The notes under the pieces are model-generated. The model was given only the letters and a program-made list of their open reading frames with translations. It ran no database searches and was not told where the DNA came from. From positions 4,687-68,686 of the forward strand of contig CAYNIW010000010.1 in the NCBI GenBank assembly GCA_964397545.1: DNA of 64,000 nucleotides, given 5' to 3'. Source of the DNA: an uncultured Desulfuromonadaceae bacterium (lineage in GTDB: Bacteria > SDB-A). Both the position numbers and the translations under genes were made by a program. Below, in pieces: positions 2,081 through 53,820 of this stretch (the first letter of the stretch is position 1; each line of letters opens with the position of its first letter).

Positions 2081-3130
2081 TTGGCGGGAAAACTCTCAAG
2101 ACAGATAAAAATCGGGTTCAGGCTTTTCCTGACGATTACAATTCTGACTCTTCTTGTCATTTTCTTCTTTTCTCTCAAAAACGCGACAAAAGAATCTATC
2201 CTTCAGGTTTTTAAGAACATAAACCCTGTTTTTCTTCTTTTGTCTCTTGGACTTTGGCTGTCGGCAATATTGCTCGACGCTTTCAGAACAAAACTTCTCG
2301 TGATAGGCGCGGGAGGAAGAATAAAACTCTGGACAGCGATAGAGGTAATCGTATCGGGGATATTTCTCGCAACAGTCACGCCTTTTCAGACCGGAGGCCT
2401 TCCCGTTCAGATGTATATTTTCCACAAAAAAAACATTTCGCCGGGAAAAGCGACCCTCGTCCTTCTCTTCAGGGGAATTTTACAGCTTGCCGTGACCATC
2501 CTGGCTATTCCTCTCGTAATCCCCTATTTCCCTAAAAACGCCATCACCGTCACGATGTTTTTCTGGGTGACTTCGGCTATAACCATTGGACTTACAGTTT
2601 CGTTTTTCATTGCTTTTAAACCCAAATACGCGAAAAATTTCTTTCACAGAATTGGCAAATTTATCTGGAAAAAGACAAAGAAAAAACCCCGGGTCTATTA
2701 CAAATTTATATGCAAGCTCTTCTCTGAAATCCATTTTTTTAAAGAAGGCCTTAAAAGCTACATGAAAACCGGAAAGACAATGCTTTTTTCCGCCTTTCTC
2801 TGCACGGCGTTGTTTCTCAGCATGTATTACCTCATTCCGGCTTTTCTGATGCTCGGGATGGGGCTTACAAATTTCCGCATACTGGAAACCATGGCATTGC
2901 AGATAATTCTCACATTCGTCTTTTTGTTCGCCCCGACCCCCGGCGGGAGCGGACTTGTCGAACTCGGTTTCAGCAGCACATTCAGCCATTTCATTCCTAA
3001 GGGATCCCCGGTTATAAGTCTGCTGACTCTCGCGTGGAGAATCATCACGTGTTACATACCTACAATTTTCGGAGCAATACTCGCCTTAAGAGTCCTGCAC
3101 ATTGAAAAACAAGACCTCGATTCCTATTGA
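2081..3130 (+). CDS. Flippase-like / lysylphosphatidylglycerol-synthase TM-domain family (UPF0104) integral membrane protein
   Basis: It is a polytopic membrane protein with the conserved PTPGGSGLVELGFS motif near the C-terminus. Confidence 0.6.
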   Translation: MAGKLSRQIKIGFRLFLTITILTLLVIFFFSLKNATKESILQVFKNINPVFLLLSLGLWLSAILLDAFRTKLLVIGAGGRIKLWTAIEVIVSGIFLATVTPFQTGGLPVQMYIFHKKNISPGKATLVLLFRGILQLAVTILAIPLVIPYFPKNAITVTMFFWVTSAITIGLTVSFFIAFKPKYAKNFFHRIGKFIWKKTKKKPRVYYKFICKLFSEIHFFKEGLKSYMKTGKTMLFSAFLCTALFLSMYYLIPAFLMLGMGLTNFRILETMALQIILTFVFLFAPTPGGSGLVELGFSSTFSHFIPKGSPVISLLTLAWRIITCYIPTIFGAILALRVLHIEKQDLDSY

Positions 3131-4214
3131 CGCGGACAAGATCCGCAAAGGCGCCGCCTTATTTGTTCTTCTCACTCTTATAGCATGGATACTTCTCATT
3201 CCTGCCGGAATTTCAGAAGAAGGCTCCTTCGCGCAGAGATGGCAGAGAGGTTTCGCTTCTCTGAAATCATCCTTGGGGGACGCCGACGCCTTTTTTATAT
3301 CCGGCGCTTTCTGTCTCGTCTTAATCCAGATGTTTTTGAGCGTTGTTAAAATGTCTCTTATCCTCAAAGCTCAGGACGTCTCTTTCTCTTTTGTTAAAAC
3401 AGCCCGTTTCACGCTGTGCCCTCTTTTTCTCTCGTCTATAACGCCCCTCCAGAGCGGCGGCATAGCGTATCAGCTCTATGTTCTCAAAAAATCGGGCCAC
3501 AACTTTTCAAAAAGCATCGCGCTGATAACTTTTAAGAGCGCATTAAACGGTCTTTTTCTCGTCATCGCTTTCCCTCTTCTTCTTATTTACGCAGGCAACG
3601 CCTTCAAAAGCGGTTTCTTTTCGGGACTTTCAAATTATGTCCTTTTTTTCTACCTTCTCGTCGCGATTTTCTTCTACTCGGTAATGTTCAGGAACAGGCA
3701 ATTAAAAAAGACAGCTGTCTTCGCCCTTCACGGCAAAAGGAGCAATCCTGTCGCCGGTTTTGTGTTCAAGCTTGCAATGAAGTTTCTCAATTCCGTTGAA
3801 AACCTGTCAAAAAATTACGAATCGTTTTTTTTCAAGCATCCTCTGAAGACAGCTTTAGCGGCATTGATAGCCATAGTTGAAATGGGAATGTATTTTCTCA
3901 TAACCCCGTGTCTTGCAATGGCTCTGAGTCCTGACAGAAATCTCGCAGGTCTTTACGCCACGGGAATGGCGATATCCTATATACTCGCCTATGCGCCTAC
4001 GCCCGGAGGATCGGGTATCGCGGAACTGTCAGGAATGGGTTTCGCTCTCAGCTGGAACGGACCCGTCACCGCTCTGATTCTCCTCTGGAGAATCGTCGCT
4101 CACTACTCTCCCGCCGTCTTTGGAGGTTTTCTCCTTATCTTCTCCGTCGGAAGGGACATCCCTCAGAAAAAGAGACCTGCGGTATTTGACGCCTGTCCAG
4201 ACGGAGAGAACTGA
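3102..4214 (+). CDS. Second UPF0104/flippase-like membrane protein, a tandem paralog
   Basis: It is multi-TM with the APTPGGSGIAELSG motif. It overlaps the upstream paralog by 29 nt. Confidence 0.6.
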   Translation: MKNKTSIPIDADKIRKGAALFVLLTLIAWILLIPAGISEEGSFAQRWQRGFASLKSSLGDADAFFISGAFCLVLIQMFLSVVKMSLILKAQDVSFSFVKTARFTLCPLFLSSITPLQSGGIAYQLYVLKKSGHNFSKSIALITFKSALNGLFLVIAFPLLLIYAGNAFKSGFFSGLSNYVLFFYLLVAIFFYSVMFRNRQLKKTAVFALHGKRSNPVAGFVFKLAMKFLNSVENLSKNYESFFFKHPLKTALAALIAIVEMGMYFLITPCLAMALSPDRNLAGLYATGMAISYILAYAPTPGGSGIAELSGMGFALSWNGPVTALILLWRIVAHYSPAVFGGFLLIFSVGRDIPQKKRPAVFDACPDGEN

Positions 4215-5301: not shown

Positions 5302-5375
5302 TGGGCGAAAGAGGAATTGAACCTCTGACCTCCGGTATGTGAGACCGGCGCTCTAACCATCTGAGCCATTCGCCC
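5302..5375 (-). tRNA. tRNA-Val (anticodon CAC)
   Basis: The reverse complement GGGCGAATGGCTCAGATGGTTAGAGCGCCGGTCTCACATACCGGAGGTCAGAGGTTCAATTCCTCTTTCGCCCA folds as a cloverleaf. The anticodon loop is CTCACAT and the T-loop is TTCAATT. Confidence 0.85.
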
Positions 5376-5402
5376 TCATCTTTCCTTCCTTTTAATTGTC
5401 AA

Positions 5403-5476
5403 TGGGCCCGGTAGGACTCGAACCTACGACCACCTGATTATGAGTCAGATGCTCTAACCGACTGAGCTACGGACCC
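5403..5476 (-). tRNA. tRNA-Met (anticodon CAT); elongator Met or lysidine-Ile2, not initiator
   Basis: The reverse complement GGGTCCGTAGCTCAGTCGGTTAGAGCATCTGACTCATAATCAGGTGGTCGTAGGTTCGAGTCCTACCGGGCCCA folds as a cloverleaf with anticodon loop CTCATAA. The G1-C72 pair argues against an initiator. Confidence 0.8.
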
Positions 5477-5589
5477 AAGTTCGTCTAATTTTACAGGATT
5501 GAAAATCCGTGTCAAGAAAAAATGAACTAACCGCTTGTCTGGCGGCGGCTGATTTGATAAATTACTTAACTATAATTCGCGGAGGAGAA

Positions 5590-11198: not shown

Positions 11199-11229
11199 TT
11201 TTTACCTCTTTTTGTTTTGGCGATTGAAT

Positions 11230-11258
11230 TTGCATTGCCGAGTTTTTTGTTATATAGT
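11230..11258 (+). promoter_or_regulatory. Candidate sigma70-type promoter for gatE
   Basis: TTGCAT, then 17 nt, then TATAGT, about 30 nt upstream of the gatE ATG. Confidence 0.3.
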
Positions 11259-11286: not shown

Positions 11287-13248
11287 ATGCAAGATTATTT
11301 CGACCGTGAAAAAAACGTAGAGAAGACTAAAAATCTCGTCGGCTTTGTCTCTTTTCAAGAGGCATCCGGAGATCTATATTCTTCTCTCGGTTTCAAATGC
11401 GGGCTCGAAGTTCACCAACAGCTTTTGACGGCTAAAAAGCTTTTCTGCCGCTGTCCTGCCGGGTTGTATTTTCAACCCAATGATTTTGATGCGGAAGTTA
11501 TCAGGCATATGCGGCCTACTCTGAGTGAGCTCGGAGAGTATGACGGAACCGCTCTTATGGAATTCAAGACAAAAAAAAGGATAATATACAGGATAAGGAA
11601 AGAGACCACATGCACATACGAGATAGACGACACTCCTCCTTTCAAGGTCAATCTTGAAGCCCTCGACATAGCGACTGAGATAGCTTGTCTCCTCAAGACA
11701 AACATCGTCGGCGAACTTCACATAACGAGAAAACAGTATCTCGACGGGAGCATACCGACAGGTTTTCAGAGGACAGCTATAGTCGGCATAGAGGGCAGTA
11801 TCCCGCTCAAAAACAAAGAAGTGAGAATAATCCAGCTCAGTCTTGAAGAGGACTCCTGCAGAGAGGTTTCTGATTTCAGGCACGACAGAGTTTTCACCAC
11901 CGACAGGCTCGGAATGCCGCTCGTTGAAACCGTCACATATCCTGACCTACTGAATCCTCTCGAAGTCGTCGAAGCCGGACAGTATATCAGATTTCTCACG
12001 AGAAGCACAGGCAGGGTCAGGACAGGCATAGGCGCGACAAGGCAGGATGTCAATGTCAGCATAACCGGCGGAACAAGAGTTGAACTCAAAGGGGTTCCGA
12101 AAATCAGCCTCTTTCCCTGGCTTGTCCACAACGAAGCATTCAGACAAAAAGCTCTTCTCGAGATGAGAAAAATCCTTCTTGAAAAATTCAAAGGAAAAGA
12201 CAACTGGCGCATGATGTCATGCAACTTCGATCCCGAACACCTCAACCTTCACCGTTCTCACACAATAGCCTACGGAAAAGAGCCCATTTCAGCCCGCGCT
12301 GTCCGCCTTCCCGGATTTGAAGGACTGCTTTCTTTTTTCACTTCACCCGGAAAATGTTTTTCAGATGAATTAAGCGACAGGCTTAAAGTCGTTGCAGGGC
12401 TCGAAAAACCCAATATTTTGCATTCGGAAGACGGCGTATTCTGCGAAAACAAAGGGGCTATAACTTTTCTCCAGTCGAAACTCGGCTTTGAAAAAGGCGA
12501 CGCTTTGCTCGTCCTCTGGGGGCCTGAGGAGGACATGGAAACCGCCCTTGAAACCATAAACGAGAGATGCCTCCTTCTTTTCGACGGAATCCCGAACGAG
12601 ACGAGGAAAGGTCTGCCCGACGGAACAACAGTATTTGAAAGAGTCCTTCCGGGACCGGACAGAATGTATCCCGACACTGATTCGGCTCCTATACCAATAG
12701 AAAAGGCTTACGTAGAAAAAATTGAGTCTAATCTGCCGGTATCTGTCAGTGAAAGGTTCTCCCAGCTCGATGACTGGGACGCTCCGCAAGACGTCAGAAC
12801 ATACATACTCAGGAAAAATCTCATGCCCATTCTCCAAGAACTCAGCCTTGCCTACGGTGCGGATCCGAAATTTTTATCATGTCTTTCCGGACATTACATA
12901 AAAAATCTCGAAGGAAAATCCGGCAAAGATTTTCCTTGGGGCAGGCTTTCAGAGATTTTCGGATATATGAAATCAGAATCCGTCAAATTCGAAAAAATCC
13001 ATGATGTCGCCAAAGTCCTGATTGAAAACCCGAATATGGAAATTGACTCGCTTTTCAGCCTCGCAGGATTCGTCAGAAGACAAAGAGATGAAGTATTATC
13101 CATGATACCCGAACTGAGAAAGAATTTTTCGAGAATAAGAAAATCAGAAAAAGAAGACGCCGAAAAAAGATGGCTCATGGGAAAATTAAAAGGCTTCGCT
13201 CTTGGAAACATTCCTCTCAGAGAACTCTACGGGGAGATAATACTTTAA
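11287..13248 (+). CDS. gatE: Glutamyl-tRNA(Gln) amidotransferase subunit E, archaeal type
   Basis: The N-terminus is SLGFKCGLEVHQQLLTAKKLFCRCP (the GatE/GatB cradle). Its 653-aa length matches GatE with a large insertion, not GatB (about 480 aa). It is followed directly by an asparaginase-like GatD. Confidence 0.75.
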   Translation: MQDYFDREKNVEKTKNLVGFVSFQEASGDLYSSLGFKCGLEVHQQLLTAKKLFCRCPAGLYFQPNDFDAEVIRHMRPTLSELGEYDGTALMEFKTKKRIIYRIRKETTCTYEIDDTPPFKVNLEALDIATEIACLLKTNIVGELHITRKQYLDGSIPTGFQRTAIVGIEGSIPLKNKEVRIIQLSLEEDSCREVSDFRHDRVFTTDRLGMPLVETVTYPDLLNPLEVVEAGQYIRFLTRSTGRVRTGIGATRQDVNVSITGGTRVELKGVPKISLFPWLVHNEAFRQKALLEMRKILLEKFKGKDNWRMMSCNFDPEHLNLHRSHTIAYGKEPISARAVRLPGFEGLLSFFTSPGKCFSDELSDRLKVVAGLEKPNILHSEDGVFCENKGAITFLQSKLGFEKGDALLVLWGPEEDMETALETINERCLLLFDGIPNETRKGLPDGTTVFERVLPGPDRMYPDTDSAPIPIEKAYVEKIESNLPVSVSERFSQLDDWDAPQDVRTYILRKNLMPILQELSLAYGADPKFLSCLSGHYIKNLEGKSGKDFPWGRLSEIFGYMKSESVKFEKIHDVAKVLIENPNMEIDSLFSLAGFVRRQRDEVLSMIPELRKNFSRIRKSEKEDAEKRWLMGKLKGFALGNIPLRELYGEIIL

Positions 13249-14627
13249 TGGATATATACAAAGGATACAAGGGACTTTCACTCGAAGTTCTGAAAAAATA
13301 CAACATTCCAGTTTGGACAGATGCTCTCGTTAAAACCGAAAAAGGCGATTTCAGGGGCATCATACTCCCCAGGTCTGTCAACGACGACGACAGACACATA
13401 GTTCTTAAAATACCCAACGGCTACAATATTGGAGTTTCAGCCGATTTAGTAACCTGCATTGAAGACATGGGATACAAGGAAGCGCACTATAAAATACCTG
13501 AAAAAGAATTCCCGTTTTCTCCCGATAAACCCGACATAAAGCTGTTCGGAACAGGCGGGACAATTGCTTCGAGACTCGACTACCGAACAGGGGCGGTAAT
13601 TCCCGCTTTCTCTCCGGGAGAACTTTACGGTGCAGTCCCCGAACTCGCGGATATCTGTAACCTCACGACTGAAAAGCTTTTCGCGGTTTTCAGTGAAAAC
13701 ATGGGTCCTCAGCAGTATAAGACTCTCGCCGTAGCGATAGGAGAGGAAATAAAAAAAGGAACCCAGGGAATAGTAATAGGACACGGGACGGACACAATGC
13801 ATCACACTGCGGCCGCACTCTCTTTCATGGTCCAGAATTCTCCTGTTCCCATCGTCATGGTAGGCTCGCAGAGATCTTCAGACAGACCTTCTTCAGACGC
13901 CGCGTTAAACCTGATACACGCGGTCAAGACGGCCGCAGAATCTGACATAGCCGAAGTCATGGTCTGCATGTTCGGCCCTACTTCGGATAAATTCGGGCTT
14001 CTGCACAGCGGGACGAGAGTTCGAAAAATGCATTCGTCTTACCGTTCGACTTTCCGAACCGTCGGTGACATACCCATAGCGGCCGTTGACAGAGATAAAA
14101 TTACTCCTATACGAAAACTCTACAAAAAAAGAAGGTCCGACAGAAACGTCGGAATCTTCCCGTATTTCGAAGAAAAAGTGGCAATGATATACTATTATCC
14201 CAACATGATGCCCGACATGATAGATTCCCTCGTCGAAAACGGATACAAGGGAATTATAATCATCGGAACGGGGTTAGGGCACGTTAACAAACCGCTTTAT
14301 CCCGCCATAAAAAGAGCCGCAGAAAAAAATGTGGCGATGTTCATGACCGTTCAGACGCTTTGGGGCTACACTCACATGTTTGTTTACGACACGGGAAGAG
14401 ACCTGATGAGCCTCGGAGTGGTCCCCGCAGAGAACATGCTCCCCGAAGTAGCCTACATTAAACTCGGATGGGCTCTCGGCAAGACAGACGACCCCGAAGA
14501 AGTAAAAAAGATAATGCTGACCCCTGTCTGCGACGAAATAACTGAAAGAGAACCCTACAACGGATACCTGATCTTTCAGGGCGGAATACCCGAAGTAGAG
14601 GATTTTCTAAGAAAAATACACAAATAA
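13248..14627 (+). CDS. gatD: Glutamyl-tRNA(Gln) amidotransferase subunit D (L-asparaginase-like)
   Basis: It has the asparaginase catalytic motifs FGTGGTIASRLD and GIVIGHGTDTMHHTAA, plus an N-terminal extra domain typical of GatD. The start at ATG 13248 overlaps the gatE stop (TAATG), which is preferred over the track's upstream start at 13170. Confidence 0.75.
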   Translation: MDIYKGYKGLSLEVLKKYNIPVWTDALVKTEKGDFRGIILPRSVNDDDRHIVLKIPNGYNIGVSADLVTCIEDMGYKEAHYKIPEKEFPFSPDKPDIKLFGTGGTIASRLDYRTGAVIPAFSPGELYGAVPELADICNLTTEKLFAVFSENMGPQQYKTLAVAIGEEIKKGTQGIVIGHGTDTMHHTAAALSFMVQNSPVPIVMVGSQRSSDRPSSDAALNLIHAVKTAAESDIAEVMVCMFGPTSDKFGLLHSGTRVRKMHSSYRSTFRTVGDIPIAAVDRDKITPIRKLYKKRRSDRNVGIFPYFEEKVAMIYYYPNMMPDMIDSLVENGYKGIIIIGTGLGHVNKPLYPAIKRAAEKNVAMFMTVQTLWGYTHMFVYDTGRDLMSLGVVPAENMLPEVAYIKLGWALGKTDDPEEVKKIMLTPVCDEITEREPYNGYLIFQGGIPEVEDFLRKIHK

Positions 14628-25484: not shown

Positions 25485-26540
25485 ATGATTCGAAAAAGCC
25501 TTTTATGTTTTTTGTTGGCATTTATAACAATACTGCCGCTGTCGGGAGCTATCCGCAAACCTCTTTTAGAAATCCACAGCGGAGCCAATTGAGGGGGCTG
25601 TGCCTCATCTGCAGGTCTGCAGAACACTTTCATAGTTAACAACTAGGACAGCCTTTCCGCCCTGAAATATTACCTGTATTCCACAGAACCTCTTTACAGC
25701 CCGGACGGCTGGGGCAGGTTCCAGTTCTACGGCGGAACAGTCATACCGAGAGCAAACATGGATGGCGGTGCGATGTTCTCGCCTACATCCATTACAGCCT
25801 TAAATTCAGCCTATGTTTCCGCTATGGCGGTTCCATGCCATGTCGAAATCCTTCTTCAGGGGACGGCTGAACCCGACCTGATGTCAGGGACTCTCGGCGT
25901 GACTGTAATTGCAGAGCAGGAGCCGGGAGCGAGTCCATATTACCTTTATGTAGCCGCTTGTTCACACCTCGTCCCTTACGGTTACAGTAATTTTTCTGAA
26001 TTTCACTATCCTCTGAGAAAAATGTATCCCAACTTCAACGGGACGCTCGTCACTTTCTCGGGGGTATATCCGGAAACCCTGGAGTTTAATATTCCTTTCA
26101 CCTTCAGCGCTTCATGGTGGCACCTCGAACCGGACGACATCTATTTTGCCGTATGGCTCCAGACAAACAAAACGGGAGACAAACAGATTCACCAGAGCGA
26201 GAACATCGAGATAACAACATTCAATTCTGTCGAGGAAACGCCTTCTCCCGTCGTCTCTTCGGGGGTTTTCGCCCTTGGAATTCCTTATCCGAATCCGTTC
26301 ACCTCTGTTTCATTCGTTCCGGTTTTCGTTGAAAAACCAGCTGTGATGTCCTTAAAAATCTTCGACCTCACAGGCAGAGCCGTAAGAGAGCTGTCTTTGG
26401 GATCTCTCGTCGAAAACGACCTTGTTTTAGAATGGGACGGCAAAGACGACTCCGGCGCCGAACTCAATGCCGGCATTTACAGGATAGAACTCACAGGCGA
26501 TGGGTTCAAAGACTCCAAAACAGTCATAAAAATAAAATAA
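25485..26540 (+). pseudogene. T9SS C-terminal-domain cargo protein gene interrupted by two in-frame stop codons
   Basis: The signal-peptide ORF MIRKSLLCFLLAFITILPLSGAIRKPLLEIHSGAN ends at TGA 25590-25592. The same frame continues through GGCASSAGLQNTFIVNN, then TAG 25644-25646, then DSLSALKYYLYSTEPLYSPDGWGRFQFYGG... into the track ORF 25758..26540. That ORF has no signal peptide of its own and ends in a Por_Secre_tail-like CTD (LKIFDLTGRAVREL...GIYRIEL...KIK). Confidence 0.45.
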
Positions 26541-36834: not shown

Positions 36835-38799
36835 TCAATTATCAAACAAGAGTATTTTCTCAGTCAAGGGTTTCATCCCGCTAAAAGAGACCGATACAAA
36901 ATAGATTCCGCTCGAAAATCTATCCGTCCTTAGTCTTTCGCTGTGCTGACCCGAAGAAAAAGATTTTTTTTCCTTTTCCAGAACTTTTCTGCCCGCGGCG
37001 TCAAATAAGGTAAATCCGACTTCTTCCGGAAACAAGAGTTGAAAATCGATTTGAATCACGCCGGGGAGACAGGACACAAAAAAAATCTTCGGGGGTTCAG
37101 GATCTTTGAGTTCTTCTGTTCCCGTCCCTTCGATGATTTCGATATCTTCTGTGAACGGCATGCTGTCAGAGTATGAGTAGGCCGTGAAAAAATACCACAT
37201 CCTGAGAAGGTATGAACCGGCACTAAGTCCGGAGGTGTTGAAAAGGCAAAGCTCGCCGTTGACAACCGGATTAGACGCGAACGGAGATACTTCAAAAAAC
37301 TCAAAAGTGTCTGACAGAGGTGCGTATTCGATGCGGTAACCCGCAAAATTGAATGGAGAAAGCGGTGCTCTGACGCAGTAAGCACTGCCGGGTATAGTAA
37401 CAGTATCGTTTGAACAGCACGGGTCCGGAGGATAAAATCCGGCGATCAATACCGCCCCGGAATCTTCCGCAAAAGGAGCAGTTGAATGGACCGTGTTGTA
37501 ACTTACGGCTAACGACCTGTCCTCGGCTATCACCCTGCCGTAAAAGAAATTGGCATTATAAAAAAGGGTTAAGGATTTTCCTTCGAGAAGCGCGTCGGTG
37601 TAGAAACTTGAAAGAGCGCAGATGAGAAAAGAAGAATCCGCGTTTCCTATATGACCCCCGGAACCGTCGCAGATTACGTTGCTCAAAAAGGCGATTGAGC
37701 TGTCTCCTAAGAGAAATTCGCCGAAAATCGAGTTTTTGAGCGTCACGTCGTGCCTCCCCCAGAAATAGAAATTCCAGGACTCAACACTCGTGTTGACAAG
37801 CCTGTAATACCTTCCCGGGAAAGGTGCCGTGAAATCTGCATAATGGGTGTTGTCAACAAAACCGGAAAATGTATCGCTCACCTGTCCTATGAAAAGGGAG
37901 CCTGCCGCCCTGAGATCGACGTCGTAAACAGTAACGTTCGTGCTGTCACATGCCATTGTCGCTAAAAACAGCGCAAATACACTGTCTATCTCCACGGAAT
38001 AATTTATCCCTGAACAGGAAGTATCCGGATACCTGAAATGCTCTATGAACATCGAAGGGGAATGAGGTCCCCTTACGGTTCCAAATGAATTTTTCGGAAA
38101 TCCGAGCCATACGAGGACAGAATCGGAATTTTTTATCCTGAGTTCAGCGGAATCCTCAGTGAACAGTACGAATTCGCCGGCTTTGTCAGAATCCATTATT
38201 TCGATCGAAGATTTGCCGGTCAATGCGAAAGTGATGAATGATTTGTCCATGCGCACAGAGTCGAAAACGGCGGATGAACTGTCAAAAAGGGAAAATCCAA
38301 AAGGTCTTGAATTGGACCTAAGGGTTGAATGTTCTGCCTCAAAAGATGAATTCCCGTATGAATTTACTGAATACTGATACACGTATGATTCGTCGAGAAA
38401 AAAAACGGCATTATCGAGCTTCATCATACCTTCGTCATATAGTGCTATGTCTCCTCTCATTCTGAGCGAACACGAATTGACAGCAAGCAGACCGTTTTGA
38501 AAAATTATTATGTCCTCGTTTATTGAAGTGTCACTCGTTATTACAAGAGTGTCATTGAGATAATAGGTTTCGGGAGCTTTTAAAGAAAACGTTTCTTCAC
38601 TCAATGCGATCTGATCGAAAGTTGATGCATTAAATCCGCTGGGTATCTGTGGTATGCCTATGGATGCCTCGCCGGTATTTATTCCGGCTTTCAGAAATCT
38701 GCATCTGTTCAAAGCCTCTGAAAACAAGTCATGCAGAAAAAATTCGCCCTTGTATCCGGCAGAAAGCAATAGAAATAAAATAATGAATTGCATTTTCAT
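36835..38799 (-). CDS. Large secreted protein with a T9SS C-terminal sorting domain
   Basis: It has the signal peptide MKMQFIILFLLLSAGYKG, a beta-rich body, and a C-terminal roughly 80-aa CTD-like segment (FTLFDAAGRKV...GIYFVSVSF...KILLFDN). Confidence 0.55.
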   Translation of the reverse strand: MKMQFIILFLLLSAGYKGEFFLHDLFSEALNRCRFLKAGINTGEASIGIPQIPSGFNASTFDQIALSEETFSLKAPETYYLNDTLVITSDTSINEDIIIFQNGLLAVNSCSLRMRGDIALYDEGMMKLDNAVFFLDESYVYQYSVNSYGNSSFEAEHSTLRSNSRPFGFSLFDSSSAVFDSVRMDKSFITFALTGKSSIEIMDSDKAGEFVLFTEDSAELRIKNSDSVLVWLGFPKNSFGTVRGPHSPSMFIEHFRYPDTSCSGINYSVEIDSVFALFLATMACDSTNVTVYDVDLRAAGSLFIGQVSDTFSGFVDNTHYADFTAPFPGRYYRLVNTSVESWNFYFWGRHDVTLKNSIFGEFLLGDSSIAFLSNVICDGSGGHIGNADSSFLICALSSFYTDALLEGKSLTLFYNANFFYGRVIAEDRSLAVSYNTVHSTAPFAEDSGAVLIAGFYPPDPCCSNDTVTIPGSAYCVRAPLSPFNFAGYRIEYAPLSDTFEFFEVSPFASNPVVNGELCLFNTSGLSAGSYLLRMWYFFTAYSYSDSMPFTEDIEIIEGTGTEELKDPEPPKIFFVSCLPGVIQIDFQLLFPEEVGFTLFDAAGRKVLEKEKKSFSSGQHSERLRTDRFSSGIYFVSVSFSGMKPLTEKILLFDN

Positions 38800-46559: not shown

Positions 46560-48494
46560 TTATTCCACTATGGAAATCTTTCGGGAAACATTTCCCGAAG
46601 CGCTCTCGAGCCTGCAGAAATAAACTCCGTTTGCAAGAAGAGAACCTTCATTGTTCTTGCCGTCAAAAGGTATATGCCTTATCCCCGGCTCCTCTTGTCT
46701 GTCCAAAAGGGTTCTGACCTCCCTTCCGGAGACGTCGTAAATCTTTATGACAACTCTGCCGTGAGAAGGAACTGCGTATGAAATCCATGATCCGGCGCCG
46801 AAAATAGCGTTTGAAAAATAGAGCTCCGGTGTCTCTATTGTAATTCCCTCTCCGATTTCCTCAACCACTCCGTTGAGATCCGCGAGTAAAGCCCTTACGC
46901 AGTATATTTCACTCGGCCAAATAGACCATCCTCCGTCATAATCCCATGCCCTGTCATTTACTGCTGTATAATAACCCCAAGAAGGCTGATTGACGCCGTC
47001 ATAGAATATTCCAACGACGAAATCTTCTCCGGCTTCTATCGTCATTCCCTGTTGAGTTACGTCCACCATATACCACTGCGGAGTTCCGAGCACAGGAAAA
47101 TTGACATTCTGGGTAAATTCTTCTGTTCCCGGTTCCGATCCTCCCCATCTGAATACTTTGCAGTCGAAAATATTTCCTCCGGTCGTAGCGTCGGAGAGCA
47201 TATATTTCGCGCCAATAAGCCTGAAAGGCCCCCGCAGAGAGGGAGCTGTGAGCCTCATAGCCGAACCTGACTCCGGAGTGTCCCAGTAGTAATATCCAGT
47301 CGCGGCGGCAGAATCGTAATAGACTTCTATTGTGTCGCCGAAAGGAAGGGTGTCGAGGATATAAAACACAGAATCGGTGGTGTCTGAAAAAAAATAGTCA
47401 TCACGGCTGAAAACCGATATCAGACAGGAATTGGAAGGATTCCTTGGAACTTCAAAAAGAAGCGGAGAAAGAACAGAATCTCCTATCATACCCCAGCCAA
47501 TGCCGCCGTTGAAACTCAGAAACAAGTCATAGGCGTCAGCATTTCCAGTCCAGGAAACCGAAACTGTATCGCCTGAAAAGAGCGTTTCACCTCCTGAAGG
47601 ATAGACCATTGATATAGCAGTAAATCCGTTGGGTTCTCCCCAAGTGGCGAAAGTGTCGAAAAGGGTCGTTCCTCCTCCTGAGGATATCCAGCTGTAACCG
47701 TCGTTAGGACCTGTTCCGTTCGGAATTCTCTGAATTGAATAATTATTGTAAGGTCCGACCCAACCGAGCTGGTCCCTTCTGGCAGTGTCAGGAGTAAAAA
47801 GATAACAGACATCCTGAGACGCGAAATCGAAGCCGAATTCCGATTCGTCCACAACAACGAAAGATCTCGGCAAGAGAATATGCGACCCGAGAGCCGAGAC
47901 GGCGTCGCCGTCGGACAAAAGCCAACCGTCAAGATCTACTGTGTCAGTCCATGACATGTTGACGAATTCAATCGAATCGTCACCGGAAGTCGGATATGGG
48001 TCTATCTCGTTGATTATAACATAGCCGTCGAGAGGAGCCGGGGCGGCGTCATTCGGAGAGCCCGGTGTCGGGGTCGCATCTATGTTGAAATCTCTTCCCA
48101 TACTGCCGGACCAGTATCCGTCGGTAATTCTCGACACGGACCATCCGACTATGGAGACCGGAGCCGGACCTGCATCGCCGAAAGCGACAACGTCAACAAG
48201 CGTGTCGCCCGGTCTGAATAGAAAAATTGAATCTCCGTCATTGTCCATTATCGCCACGGATATGCTGAAGTTCATGACGGAATTAGCGCCTATAATGCCT
48301 GAAAGCAGAAGTGAATCGCCGTCTATCGCGGATGTTATTTTCCAGCCCGTCAGATCTATCTGAGATGCCGTCGCATTGTATAATTCAACCCACTCCGTCC
48401 CTTTAGGCGCGAATTCGTTAATGACGACATCAGGAACCTGCGAGTTAAGGCACACAGCAACGGTTAAAAAAATGAATAACCCAAATATCCTCAT
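46560..48494 (-). CDS. Larger paralog: LTD-repeat secreted protein with a T9SS C-terminal domain
   Basis: It has a signal peptide. The two LTDs are VVINEFAPKGTEWVELYN...LTGWKI and VIINEIDPYPTSGDDSIEF...LDGWLL. It carries an extra beta-rich middle domain, and the CTD is IKIYDVSGREVRTL...GVYFCRL...ISIVE. Confidence 0.6.
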   Translation of the reverse strand: MRIFGLFIFLTVAVCLNSQVPDVVINEFAPKGTEWVELYNATASQIDLTGWKITSAIDGDSLLLSGIIGANSVMNFSISVAIMDNDGDSIFLFRPGDTLVDVVAFGDAGPAPVSIVGWSVSRITDGYWSGSMGRDFNIDATPTPGSPNDAAPAPLDGYVIINEIDPYPTSGDDSIEFVNMSWTDTVDLDGWLLSDGDAVSALGSHILLPRSFVVVDESEFGFDFASQDVCYLFTPDTARRDQLGWVGPYNNYSIQRIPNGTGPNDGYSWISSGGGTTLFDTFATWGEPNGFTAISMVYPSGGETLFSGDTVSVSWTGNADAYDLFLSFNGGIGWGMIGDSVLSPLLFEVPRNPSNSCLISVFSRDDYFFSDTTDSVFYILDTLPFGDTIEVYYDSAAATGYYYWDTPESGSAMRLTAPSLRGPFRLIGAKYMLSDATTGGNIFDCKVFRWGGSEPGTEEFTQNVNFPVLGTPQWYMVDVTQQGMTIEAGEDFVVGIFYDGVNQPSWGYYTAVNDRAWDYDGGWSIWPSEIYCVRALLADLNGVVEEIGEGITIETPELYFSNAIFGAGSWISYAVPSHGRVVIKIYDVSGREVRTLLDRQEEPGIRHIPFDGKNNEGSLLANGVYFCRLESASGNVSRKISIVE

Positions 48495-53709: not shown

Positions 53710-53784
<75 letters not shown>

Positions 53785-53820
53785 CGATCGTAAAGAATAT
53801 AGATAAAAACAAAACTTTTG

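What the first reader, a model, noticed from the sequence alone, without database searches (positions are those of the whole stretch)
11287..14627. Archaeal-type GatDE Glu-tRNA(Gln) amidotransferase in a bacterial, T9SS-bearing genome
Genes 11287..13248 and 13248..14627 encode a 653-aa GatE-like protein and an asparaginase-like GatD, with the gatE stop and gatD start overlapping in TAATG. The GatE N-terminus is GFKCGLEVHQQL...KLFCRCP. GatD has the catalytic motifs GTGGTIAS and HGTDT plus the N-terminal extra domain. From established knowledge, GatDE is regarded as an archaeal signature, whereas bacteria use GatCAB or GlnRS. The flanking genes (FadL-like outer-membrane protein, folC, GGDEF) are clearly bacterial and the promoter is sigma70-like, so this looks like a horizontally acquired or lineage-specific tRNA-dependent amidotransferase. 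The gene order (E then D) is reversed compared with archaeal operons, which list D before E.
Basis: partly seen in the sequence, partly recalled or inferred. Interest (0 to 1): 0.75.

Follow-up and report, generated by a model that had tools for sequence, protein, structure and literature searches.

The report
Archaeal-type GatDE amidotransferase in bacteria
A bacterium of the candidate phylum WOR-3 carries an intact, strongly conserved two-gene operon for GatDE, the enzyme that archaea use to make glutamine directly on its tRNA and that reviews still call archaea-only. It belongs to a large bacterial branch of this family, present in at least about 600 bacterial species, that I could not find described in the literature.

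Summary
Positions 11287-13248 encode a 653-aa GatE and 13248-14627 a 459-aa GatD, overlapping in TAATG. Both pass NCBIfam GatE/GatD equivalog models; GatB models fail. All known catalytic residues are present. The contig is bacterial and not chimeric: it carries lipid-A acyltransferase, PriA, Der, Era, FolC and T9SS cargo, the same arrangement occurs in at least 23 independent contigs plus a syntenic WOR-3 MAG, and GC/GC3 are uniform. dN/dS is 0.03-0.09.

The pair is not a lineage oddity. A pattern specific to this branch hits at least 593 GTDB species genomes: Bacteroidales, Ignavibacteria, Cloacimonadota, Zixibacteria, Aminicenantes, Omnitrophota and Clostridia, including two cultured isolates. 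Order is gatE then gatD in 74 of 80 loci, with no other conserved neighbour.

Bacterial GatD forms one shallow clade (median 76% identity; archaeal pairs 38%) that sits next to Asgard GatD. Asgard loci share the E-then-D order; Pyrococcus has D-then-E.

Most likely this is a working Glu-tRNA(Gln) amidotransferase, acquired once from an Asgard-like archaeon and then spread among anaerobic bacteria. Its tRNA-binding domains are strongly diverged. NCBI already annotates the proteins, but a 2022 review still states GatDE occurs only in archaea. I could not test whether the hosts lack GatCAB or GlnRS.

The parts
11229..11258 (+). Promoter-like site (TTTGCA-18-TATAGT) 29 nt upstream of the gatE start. 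Weak evidence only.
   Evidence: 9 of 12 consensus matches. The count of such sites in the region equals the shuffle expectation.
11287..13248 (+). gatE: the tRNA-dependent kinase/transamidase subunit, 653 aa.
   Evidence: TIGR00134 passes its cut-off. Full-length alignment to M. thermautotrophicus GatE. The Mg ligands H43/E187/E214 (Mth H15/E157/E184) are present. The AF2 model best matches GatE chains 1zq1_C and 2d6f_C/D.
11287..11376 (+). N-terminal extension of GatE (aa 1-30), specific to the bacterial clade. Clade consensus: NYxxTKKxVGYVPRKEA.
   Evidence: 76% gaps in archaeal sequences over this stretch. It is conserved within the clade and predicted helical with pLDDT about 90.
11377..12186 (+). 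GatE catalytic cradle, first part (aa 31-300).
   Evidence: 46-48% identical to archaeal GatE and 74-77% within the bacterial clade. Pfam GatB_N.
12187..12546 (+). GatE insertion domain (aa 301-420), at the position of the AspRS-like/GAD insertion of archaeal GatE. Strongly diverged.
   Evidence: it interrupts the GatB_N match. It aligns to Mth GatE but is only 11-26% identical. Pfam GAD is not detected. Foldseek gives weak AspRS hits.
12547..12726 (+). GatE catalytic cradle, second part (aa 421-480).
   Evidence: 43% identical to archaeal GatE. Invariant motif PNETRK...PDTDSAP.
12727..13245 (+). GatE C-terminal helical and tail region (aa 481-653), the presumed tRNA D-loop reader. Strongly diverged.
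   Evidence: 13-18% identical to archaeal GatE; all-helical, pLDDT about 90; a profile of this region hits the Mth GatE tail only weakly (E 0.0015) and GatB at E 0.46.
13246..13250 (+). TAATG stop/start overlap, indicating translational coupling of gatE and gatD.
   Evidence: The same arrangement occurs in the WOR-3 relative L001. Other phyla mostly have gaps of 17-90 nt.
13248..14627 (+). gatD: the asparaginase-type glutaminase subunit, 459 aa.
   Evidence: TIGR02153 and NF003217 pass. T102/T105, T181, D182 and K260 are present. Identity to the bacterial-clade GatD of other phyla is 67-80%, and 97% to the WOR-3 relative L001.
13329..13445 (+). GatD_N domain, the GatD-specific N-terminal domain.
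   Evidence: PF18195, 45.7 bits (cut-off 25.7), residues 28-66.
13536..14516 (+). Asparaginase N- and C-terminal domains of GatD.
   Evidence: PF00710 over residues 97-287 and PF17763 over residues 310-423.

Best explanation
This is a functional gatE-gatD operon encoding an archaeal-type, heterodimeric (in archaea alpha2-beta2) tRNA-dependent amidotransferase in a WOR-3 (Caldifarciminota) bacterium. The mechanism follows established GatDE biochemistry. A non-discriminating GluRS loads Glu onto tRNA(Gln). GatE binds Glu-tRNA(Gln) and uses ATP and Mg2+ (ligands H43, E187, E214) to make gamma-phosphoryl-Glu-tRNA(Gln). GatD hydrolyses Gln or Asn through its Thr nucleophile and Thr-Asp-Lys triad (T102/T105, T181, D182, K260). 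The released ammonia travels through an internal tunnel to GatE and yields Gln-tRNA(Gln). Shown here: family membership of both subunits, an intact catalytic inventory, full-length GatE architecture, operon linkage, strong purifying selection, a bacterial chromosomal context, and membership of a large monophyletic bacterial clade. Inferred: enzymatic activity; tRNA(Gln) as the substrate; and an origin by a single transfer of an E-then-D operon from an Asgard-related archaeon, followed by vertical descent with occasional transfers among anaerobic bacteria. Also inferred: the diverged insertion and tail domains were re-tuned to bacterial tRNA(Gln), which has U1-A72 instead of the archaeal A1-U72.
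For: Family assignment. The structure model best matches GatE chains (E about 1e-30) and GatB chains far less well (1e-15 or worse). Catalytic residues are invariant in the aligned bacterial-core sequences (16 GatE, 14 of 15 GatD, one gapped) and the motifs are present in most of the 79 GatE and 71 GatD ORFs from the loci. The Mg-ligand roles come from PMC2330236. Purifying selection between two WOR-3 species: dN/dS 0.088 for gatE and 0.031 for gatD. GC and GC3 equal those of the neighbouring genes. Bacterial context and independent assemblies; synteny with MAG JAFGIG01, including the tRNA-Met gene. Distribution: at least 593 GTDB species genomes, found with peptide patterns that occur in 120 of 120 bacterial-clade and 0 of 240 archaeal GatE sequences. 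gatE-then-gatD adjacency in 74 of 80 loci and no other conserved neighbour. This fits a self-contained housekeeping module. Phylogeny: bacterial GatD forms a clade at 97-99% bootstrap. In 97.5% of bootstraps the smallest clade holding all bacterial sequences plus Sigynarchaeota GatD has at most 26 of 144 leaves. Bacterial GatE is split from the sampled archaeal GatE at 99%. Bacterial-core GatD is 71-97% identical (median 76%), whereas archaeal pairs have a median of 38%. E-then-D order is shared with Asgard loci L084 and L091 but not with P. abyssi L090.
Against: No activity or tRNA data exist. The window (64 kb) holds no gltX, glnS, gatCAB or tRNA(Gln) gene, so the need for an indirect Gln pathway in this organism is untested. 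Many host groups, such as Bacteroidales and Clostridia, ordinarily have GlnRS and/or GatCAB (from general knowledge, not tested), so the enzyme could be redundant or have another substrate. Pfam does not recognise the GAD and YqeY domains in this protein. The tail is only 13-18% identical to archaeal tails, so tRNA recognition may differ. NF003107 is missed by 7.5 bits. The trees are neighbour-joining only. The exact bacteria-plus-Asgard node has 45-51% bootstrap, and the sampled GatE set does not resolve the placement.
Confidence: 0.74

Rival explanations
1. Same enzyme chemistry but a different or broader tRNA substrate. The bacterial GatDE would amidate Asp-tRNA(Asn), or both Glu-tRNA(Gln) and Asp-tRNA(Asn), and so take over the role of bacterial GatCAB.
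For: Archaeal GatDE rejects tRNA(Asn) by reading the first base pair and D-loop positions 19/20, not the amino acid (PMC2330236). In bacteria both tRNA(Gln) and tRNA(Asn) start with U1-A72 (general knowledge). The tRNA-reading insertion and tail domains are the most diverged parts of the protein. A related sub-branch is genomically linked to asparagine synthetase AsnA.
Against: There is no direct evidence. The catalytic pocket is 43-48% identical to Glu-specific archaeal GatE. The AsnA-linked sub-branch is catalytically degenerate and distinct from the clade that contains the window genes.
Confidence: 0.12
2. A redundant or accessory copy with a role outside translation, for example a regulated asparaginase/glutaminase or a kinase acting on something other than aminoacyl-tRNA.
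For: The hosts may already have GlnRS or GatCAB (untested). Neither a tRNA or aaRS neighbour nor a T-box leader links the operon to translation.
Against: Both subunits are always co-encoded and both keep every catalytic residue. Conservation is at housekeeping level: GatD is 71-80% identical across phyla and dN/dS is 0.03. Archaeal GatD is glutaminase-inactive without Glu-tRNA(Gln) (PMC2330236). The full tRNA-binding architecture is retained.
Confidence: 0.05
3. Origin rival: the bacterial clade is an ancient, vertically inherited bacterial GatDE (present in LUCA and lost from most bacteria) rather than a transfer from archaea.
For: Sheppard and Soll proposed that both amidotransferases were present in LUCA (cited in PMC9499178). 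In the GatE tree the bacterial sequences form a clan separate from the sampled archaea.
Against: The bacterial core is very shallow compared with archaeal diversity. The distribution is patchy: at least 593 hits among 185,579 species genomes. In the GatD tree rooted on asparaginases the bacteria nest inside the archaeal sequences next to Asgard. The E-then-D order is shared with Asgard. Mixed-phylum subclades have 100% support.
Confidence: 0.08
4. Assembly or binning artefact: archaeal DNA joined to a bacterial contig.
For: None found.
Against: GC and GC3 are uniform. Bacterial genes lie on both sides on one contig. The identical arrangement is seen in at least 23 contigs from independent runs, and a syntenic region occurs in a different WOR-3 MAG at 92-97% protein identity. 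The sequences belong to a clade found only in bacterial contexts, including isolates and complete chromosomes.
Confidence: 0.01

Closest known systems
Archaeal GatDE (M. thermautotrophicus 2D6F, P. abyssi 1ZQ1)
   Same: Two subunits, GatE (cradle, insertion, helical/tail) and GatD (GatD_N plus asparaginase fold). All catalytic residues match. The alignments are full length.
   Different: The host is bacterial. GatE is only about 30% identical (GatD about 46%). GatE has a clade-specific 30-aa N-terminal extension. The insertion and tail domains have diverged beyond Pfam detection. Gene order is E-then-D here and D-then-E in Pyrococcus.
Asgard archaeal GatDE (Sigynarchaeota L084, Promethearchaeota L091)
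   Same: gatE-then-gatD order and adjacency. These are the closest identified archaeal GatD (47-50% identity) and GatE (33%). They are nearest neighbours of the bacterial clade in the GatD tree.
   Different: The Asgard proteins keep Pfam-recognisable GAD and GatB_Yqey domains. Their contexts are archaeal (Pelota/eRF1, Arf-like GTPases).
Bacterial GatCAB (GatB subunit)
   Same: GatE and GatB are paralogs that share the kinase/transamidase cradle and a YqeY-like tail. Both serve the indirect pathway to Gln-tRNA(Gln).
   Different: GatB models score about 100 bits against cut-offs of at least 315. No GatA or GatC gene is adjacent. The glutaminase partner is asparaginase-type GatD, not amidase-type GatA. 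The tail profile does not resemble GatB (E 0.46).
Type I L-asparaginase (AnsA/TIGR00519)
   Same: GatD shares the fold and the catalytic Thr/Thr-Asp-Lys residues. It passes the subfamily model (375 bits against 260.5).
   Different: The GatD-specific equivalogs score higher (about 497-499 bits). A GatD_N domain is present and the gene is coupled to gatE. Free asparaginases in the PDB score at most 134 bits.

Membership tests
GatDE, subunit E (GatE) | Curated equivalog model score above cut-off | tested here: met
   TIGR00134 scores 389.4 bits against 319.55. NF003107 scores 448.5 against 456, narrowly below.
GatDE, subunit E (GatE) | Kinase-site Mg2+ ligands (Mth His15, Glu157, Glu184) | tested here: met
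   H43, E187 and E214 are aligned and invariant in 16 of 16 bacterial-core and 20 of 20 archaeal sequences. Their roles are given in PMC2330236.
GatDE, subunit E (GatE) | GatE-specific AspRS-like (GAD) insertion within the cradle domain, absent from GatB | tested here: met
   The Pfam GatB_N match spans residues 37-477 for a 277-position model, so an insertion of about 165 residues is present. This stretch aligns to Mth GatE. Foldseek aligns 521-537 columns to GatE chains and gives weak AspRS hits. Caveat: Pfam GAD itself is not detected, and identity over the insertion is 11-26%.
GatDE, subunit E (GatE) | C-terminal helical plus YqeY-like tail domain that reads the tRNA D-loop | tested here: inconclusive
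   An all-helical C-terminal region of the right size is predicted with pLDDT about 90. It is only 13-18% identical to archaeal tails. Its profile hits the Mth tail at E 0.0015. PF02637 is found in a few clade members but not in the window protein.
GatDE, subunit D (GatD) | Curated equivalog model scores above cut-off | tested here: met
   TIGR02153 scores 496.5 against 324. NF003217 scores 499.4 against 310.
GatDE, subunit D (GatD) | Asparaginase-type Thr nucleophile and Thr-Asp-Lys triad, plus the GatD_N domain | tested here: met
   T102/T105, T181, D182 and K260 are present. The motifs occur in 70 of 71 bacterial GatD ORFs. PF18195 scores 45.7 bits.
GatDE holoenzyme | The two subunits are co-encoded and form a complex | tested here: met
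   Co-encoding only: TAATG overlap and gatE-then-gatD adjacency in 74 of 80 loci. A physical alpha2-beta2 complex cannot be tested with these tools.
GatDE holoenzyme | ATP- and amide-dependent conversion of Glu-tRNA(Gln) to Gln-tRNA(Gln) | not testable with these tools
   This needs biochemistry. It is inferred from intact catalytic residues and purifying selection.
GatDE holoenzyme | Host uses the indirect pathway: ND-GluRS present, GlnRS absent | not testable with these tools
   Only 64 kb of the genome is available. It holds no gltX, glnS, gatCAB or tRNA(Gln) gene.
GatDE as 'archaeal signature protein' | Restricted to Archaea | tested here: not met
   The window and 80 of 80 retrieved loci are bacterial. 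This contradicts the distribution rule, not the enzyme family assignment.
GatCAB, subunit B (GatB) | GatB equivalog score above cut-off, with adjacent gatA/gatC | tested here: not met
   The best GatB model scores 100.5 bits against 314.8. The downstream partner is GatD, not GatA or GatC.

The most novel reading that the evidence does not exclude
An unrecognised bacterial branch of GatDE, acquired once as an E-then-D operon from an Asgard-related archaeon, now serves as the Gln-tRNA(Gln) amidotransferase (possibly also Asn-tRNA(Asn)) in hundreds of anaerobic bacterial species. There it replaces or backs up GatCAB or GlnRS, and its insertion and tail domains have been re-tuned to bacterial tRNA identity elements (U1-A72). 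This would overturn the 'archaeal signature' status of GatDE. It would also give a natural experiment on why archaea keep two amidotransferases while bacteria use one.
Probability: 0.35. Interest if true: 0.75.

Novelty: new member of a known kind. Interest (0 to 1): 0.58.

Why it matters
Reviews treat GatDE as an archaeal signature protein. [quoted passage not shown] That status feeds arguments about LUCA, about the co-evolution of archaeal tRNA(Gln) with GatDE, and about why GlnRS never entered archaea. A conserved bacterial clade changes this picture. It is under strong purifying selection, is present in at least about 600 species, and includes culturable Clostridia. Three questions become directly testable. 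Can GatDE read bacterial tRNA(Gln)? Does it displace GatCAB or GlnRS? Did it come from Asgard-like archaea? For genome annotation, the result means that gatD/gatE in a bin is not evidence of archaeal contamination.

Tried and rejected
1. Chimeric contig: rejected. GC and GC3 are uniform, bacterial genes flank the operon on both sides, at least 23 independent contigs show the same arrangement, and a second WOR-3 MAG is syntenic.

2. 'GatB plus an unrelated asparaginase': rejected by model scores and architecture.

3. Conserved gene neighbourhood as a functional clue: none beyond gatE-gatD. The next most frequent neighbour cluster is in 12 of 80 loci and reflects Bacteroidales envelope-gene synteny. 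The neighbours in Clostridia are an MCP, a LysM protein, MatE and DegV.

4. tRNA(Gln) or any tRNA linked to the operon: none.

5. T-box or another known riboswitch upstream of gatE in the Clostridia loci: none at gathering scores or at E <= 1, despite intergenic regions of 416-440 nt.

6. Plasmid carriage as a transfer vehicle: no bacterial-clade copy in PLSDB. The only hits were a Bacteroides ansB and a haloarchaeal replicon.

7. Swap of the GatE tail for a GatB-type tail: no support (E 0.46 to GatB).

8. Literature on bacterial GatDE: seven full-text searches found none. Sheppard and Soll 2008 is not held. Absence from this library does not prove that it is unpublished.

9. gatCAB, glnS or gltX in the same genome: absent from the window, and the rest of the genome could not be reached.

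10. The GatE tree, with only Asgard, Thermococcales and Methanothermobacter as archaeal samples, cannot place the bacterial clade within archaea.

11. The fragments upstream of gatD in L086 and L089 could not be identified as GatE C-termini.


Full report
OBSERVATION

gatE is 11287..13248 (+, 653 aa). gatD starts at the ATG at 13248 inside ORF 13170..14627 and is 459 aa. The stop TAA (13246-13248) and the start ATG (13248-13250) overlap as TAATG. The quoted motifs are all present.

NCBIfam puts GatE above the TIGR00134 cut-off (389.4 bits against 319.55) and just under NF003107 (448.5 against 456). GatB models reach only about 100 bits against cut-offs of at least 315. GatD passes TIGR02153 (496.5 against 324) and NF003217 (499.4 against 310).

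Pfam finds GatB_N over residues 37-477, so the catalytic fold is interrupted by a large insertion as in GatE. It also finds GatD_N, Asparaginase and Asparaginase_C. Among solved structures the best matches are the archaeal GatDE subunits 2d6f and 1zq1. GatB scores about 50 bits and free asparaginases at most 134 bits.

An AlphaFold2 model of GatE (pLDDT 74, pTM 0.66) best matches GatE chains 1zq1_C and 2d6f_C/D (E 1e-27 to 1e-30, TM-score normalised to the target 0.62-0.66). GatB chains follow at E 1e-15 to 5e-9.

IS THE CONTIG BACTERIAL AND REAL?

The window carries bacterial hallmarks: lipid-A acyltransferase, SurE, PCMT, a YacP/NYN protein, GGDEF, FolC (TIGR01499 passes), PriA, Der/EngA, Era, PlsY and GpsA. 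Three proteins have T9SS type-A sorting domains.

GC is flat across the region. GC3 of gatE (0.48) and gatD (0.52) falls inside the range of the neighbouring genes, 0.44-0.51. The exact GatE protein is recorded on 28 contigs, and 23 were read with the same arrangement.

A different WOR-3 MAG (JAFGIG01, locus L001) has the same genes at 92% (GatE) and 97% (GatD) protein identity. It also has the same spacing to the upstream tRNA-Met gene. NCBI names these proteins GatE and GatD of 'candidate division WOR-3 bacterium', which NCBI taxonomy now calls Caldifarciminota. A chimera is excluded.

Between the two WOR-3 species dN/dS is 0.088 for gatE and 0.031 for gatD. The genes are therefore resident and under strong purifying selection.

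HOW WIDESPREAD IS IT?

A protein search returned the maximum of 8000 scored candidates. Apart from the window's own cluster (100%) and one WOR-3 relative (75%), the 120 listed are 53-57% identical to the window GatE. The named ones come from bacterial MAGs.

The best 80 loci are all bacterial: many Bacteroidales and other Bacteroidota, Ignavibacteria, Cloacimonadota, Zixibacteria, Aminicenantes, Omnitrophota, Chloroflexia and Clostridia. They include two complete MAG chromosomes and two cultured isolates, Clostridium tagluense A121 and Clostridiales bacterium oral taxon 876 F0540.

The two peptide patterns used for that scan occur in 120 of 120 bacterial-clade GatE sequences and in 0 of 240 archaeal GatE sequences. 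The 593 is therefore a credible lower bound for this clade.

In 74 of 80 loci gatD follows gatE on the same strand, usually 17-90 nt downstream. No other gene is conserved next to the pair: the next best cluster is in 12 of 80 loci and consists of Bacteroidales envelope genes. No tRNA gene accompanies it. No copy was found on PLSDB plasmids.

The pair is thus a self-contained two-gene module sitting in ordinary chromosomal neighbourhoods.

CATALYTIC INVENTORY AND DOMAIN DIVERGENCE

Three Mg2+ ligands are essential for kinase and transamidase activity in M. thermautotrophicus GatE: His15, Glu157 and Glu184 (PMC2330236). They align with H43, E187 and E214, which are invariant in all 16 sampled bacterial-core and all 20 archaeal sequences.

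The GatD nucleophile and triad positions (T102/T105, T181, D182, K260) are conserved, and the motifs occur in 70 of 71 bacterial GatD ORFs.

Identity to archaeal GatE is uneven along the protein. It is 43-48% in the catalytic cradle, 11-26% in the insertion domain and 13-18% in the C-terminal helical/tail region. The bacterial clade also has its own N-terminal extension of about 30 residues.

Pfam recognises GAD, GatB_Yqey and YqeY in archaeal GatE, but usually only GatB_N in the bacterial clade. A profile of the bacterial C-terminal region finds the M. thermautotrophicus tail only weakly (E 0.0015) and GatB not significantly (E 0.46). The tail is therefore diverged rather than swapped.

In archaeal GatDE the tRNA is contacted at the acceptor stem, the T-stem/loop and the D-loop. 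In the M. thermautotrophicus complex, as I recall it, these contacts are made largely by the insertion and tail domains. Their divergence here fits re-tuning to bacterial tRNA, but that is an inference.

EVOLUTION

A HMMER search of 1.84 billion cluster representatives with GatD gave 453 representatives at E <= 1e-30.

In neighbour-joining trees rooted on two archaeal asparaginases, the bacterial core plus three divergent bacterial-context branches form one clade with 97-99% bootstrap. The sequences next to this clade are Sigynarchaeota P0250, Promethearchaeota L091 and three unlabelled representatives. The exact node has only 45-51% support. However, in 97.5% of bootstraps the smallest clade holding all bacterial sequences plus the Sigynarchaeota sequence has at most 26 of 144 leaves.

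Bacterial-core GatD sequences are 71-97% identical (median 76%) even between Bacillota and Bacteroidota. Archaeal GatD pairs have a median of 38%. The bacterial radiation is therefore shallow.

In the GatE tree the bacterial core has 100% support. The split between all bacterial-context sequences and the archaeal sequences has 99% support. With only Asgard, Thermococcales and Methanothermobacter sampled, placement within archaea is not resolved.

Gene order adds an independent character. Pyrococcus abyssi has gatD then gatE. An unidentified archaeal contig has gatD alone. Both Asgard loci have gatE then gatD, like the bacteria.

Inside the bacterial clade many subclades follow taxonomy. Some mixed-phylum pairs nevertheless have 100% support: Omnitrophota with Clostridia, Zixibacteria with Ignavibacteria, and Aminicenantes with 'Eubacteriales'. 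This suggests occasional transfers, although MAG labels may be wrong.

The most economical reading is one transfer of an E-then-D operon from an Asgard-related archaeon into bacteria, followed by mostly vertical descent with some lateral spread among anaerobes. The alternative is an ancient bacterial lineage lost almost everywhere. It is disfavoured by the shallow depth, the patchy distribution and the nested position, but NJ trees do not exclude it.

MECHANISM

The chemistry established for archaeal GatDE (PMC2330236 and PMC9499178) most likely applies here. GatE phosphorylates Glu-tRNA(Gln). GatD releases ammonia from Gln or Asn. The ammonia is channelled to GatE and gives Gln-tRNA(Gln).

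Shown here: family membership, an intact set of catalytic residues, the domain architecture, operon coupling and selective constraint.

Inferred: enzymatic activity, the identity of the tRNA, and dependence on a non-discriminating GluRS.

Not testable here: whether this bacterium or the other hosts lack GatCAB or GlnRS. The 64-kb window holds none of gatCAB, glnS, gltX, asnS or tRNA(Gln).

Bacterial tRNA(Gln) and tRNA(Asn) both begin with U1-A72 (general knowledge), and GatDE discriminates by tRNA features. A broadened or shifted specificity is therefore a live alternative. I give it about 0.12.

COMPARISON WITH THE LITERATURE, AND NOVELTY

The enzyme family is well known, and NCBI's pipeline already labels these bacterial proteins GatE and GatD. 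Seven full-text searches found no paper describing GatDE in bacteria. [quoted passage not shown]

I rate the finding a new member of a known kind: a bacterial branch of GatDE. I cannot exclude a description outside the searchable library. Interest is moderate to high, because the finding contradicts a textbook distribution rule and culturable hosts make it experimentally tractable. The enzyme type itself is not new.

The identification was right and the refutation criteria were not met. Four points need correction. The pair is not specific to this lineage. The gene-order contrast holds only against some archaea. The promoter argument is not above chance. The 'FadL-like' label is unsupported.

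Noticed in passing
L086 502-1932 and 2699-3829; L087 2614-4560, 6943-8355 and 8466-9599: A divergent sub-branch of the bacterial GatDE-like clade has lost catalytic residues in both subunits. In the GatD-like protein T102 is A/G, T181 is V/R, D182 is A and K260 is K/Q. In the GatE-like protein H43 is R and E187 is G. In both loci the gatD-like gene is followed by an AsnA (aspartate-ammonia ligase) gene. This may be a pseudo-enzyme or tRNA-binding scaffold linked to asparagine synthesis.
   Followed up: partly
L085 9301-12132: A single 943-aa protein fuses the N-terminal part of GatE (about 490 aa) to a complete GatD (56% identical to the window GatD). There is no separate GatE tail. The context looks bacterial (Ser/Thr kinase, PIN/TRAM, rhodanese).
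   Followed up: no
L020 5543-5982; L040 5603-6018: In the two cultured Clostridia the region upstream of gatE is an unusually long intergenic stretch (416-440 nt). It has no match to any Rfam family, T-box included, even at E <= 1.
   Followed up: partly
L018 vs L003; L011 vs L009; L002/L004 group vs L012/L044/L066/L071: Several GatE/GatD pairs from differently labelled phyla are much more similar to each other than the clade median (GatE 79% and 72% against 58%). They form mixed-phylum clades with 100% support. This reflects either inter-phylum transfer or mislabelled MAGs.
   Followed up: partly
window 25758-26540 (+), 36835-38799 (-), 46560-48494 (-): Three predicted secreted proteins carry a C-terminal T9SS type-A sorting domain (TIGR04183 above its cut-off). 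Two of them also have LTD or FlgD-Ig-like domains.
   Followed up: partly
window 2081-3130 and 3102-4214 (+): Two overlapping tandem genes each encode only the transmembrane (flippase-like) LPG_synthase_TM domain of MprF-type proteins. No aminoacyl-tRNA-dependent synthase domain was detected.
   Followed up: no
   Followed up: no
window 5302-5375, 5402-5477 and 53710-53787 (-): tRNA-Val(CAC), tRNA-Met(CAT) and tRNA-Pro(GGG) genes. The tRNA-Met gene is syntenic with the related WOR-3 MAG L001.
   Followed up: yes
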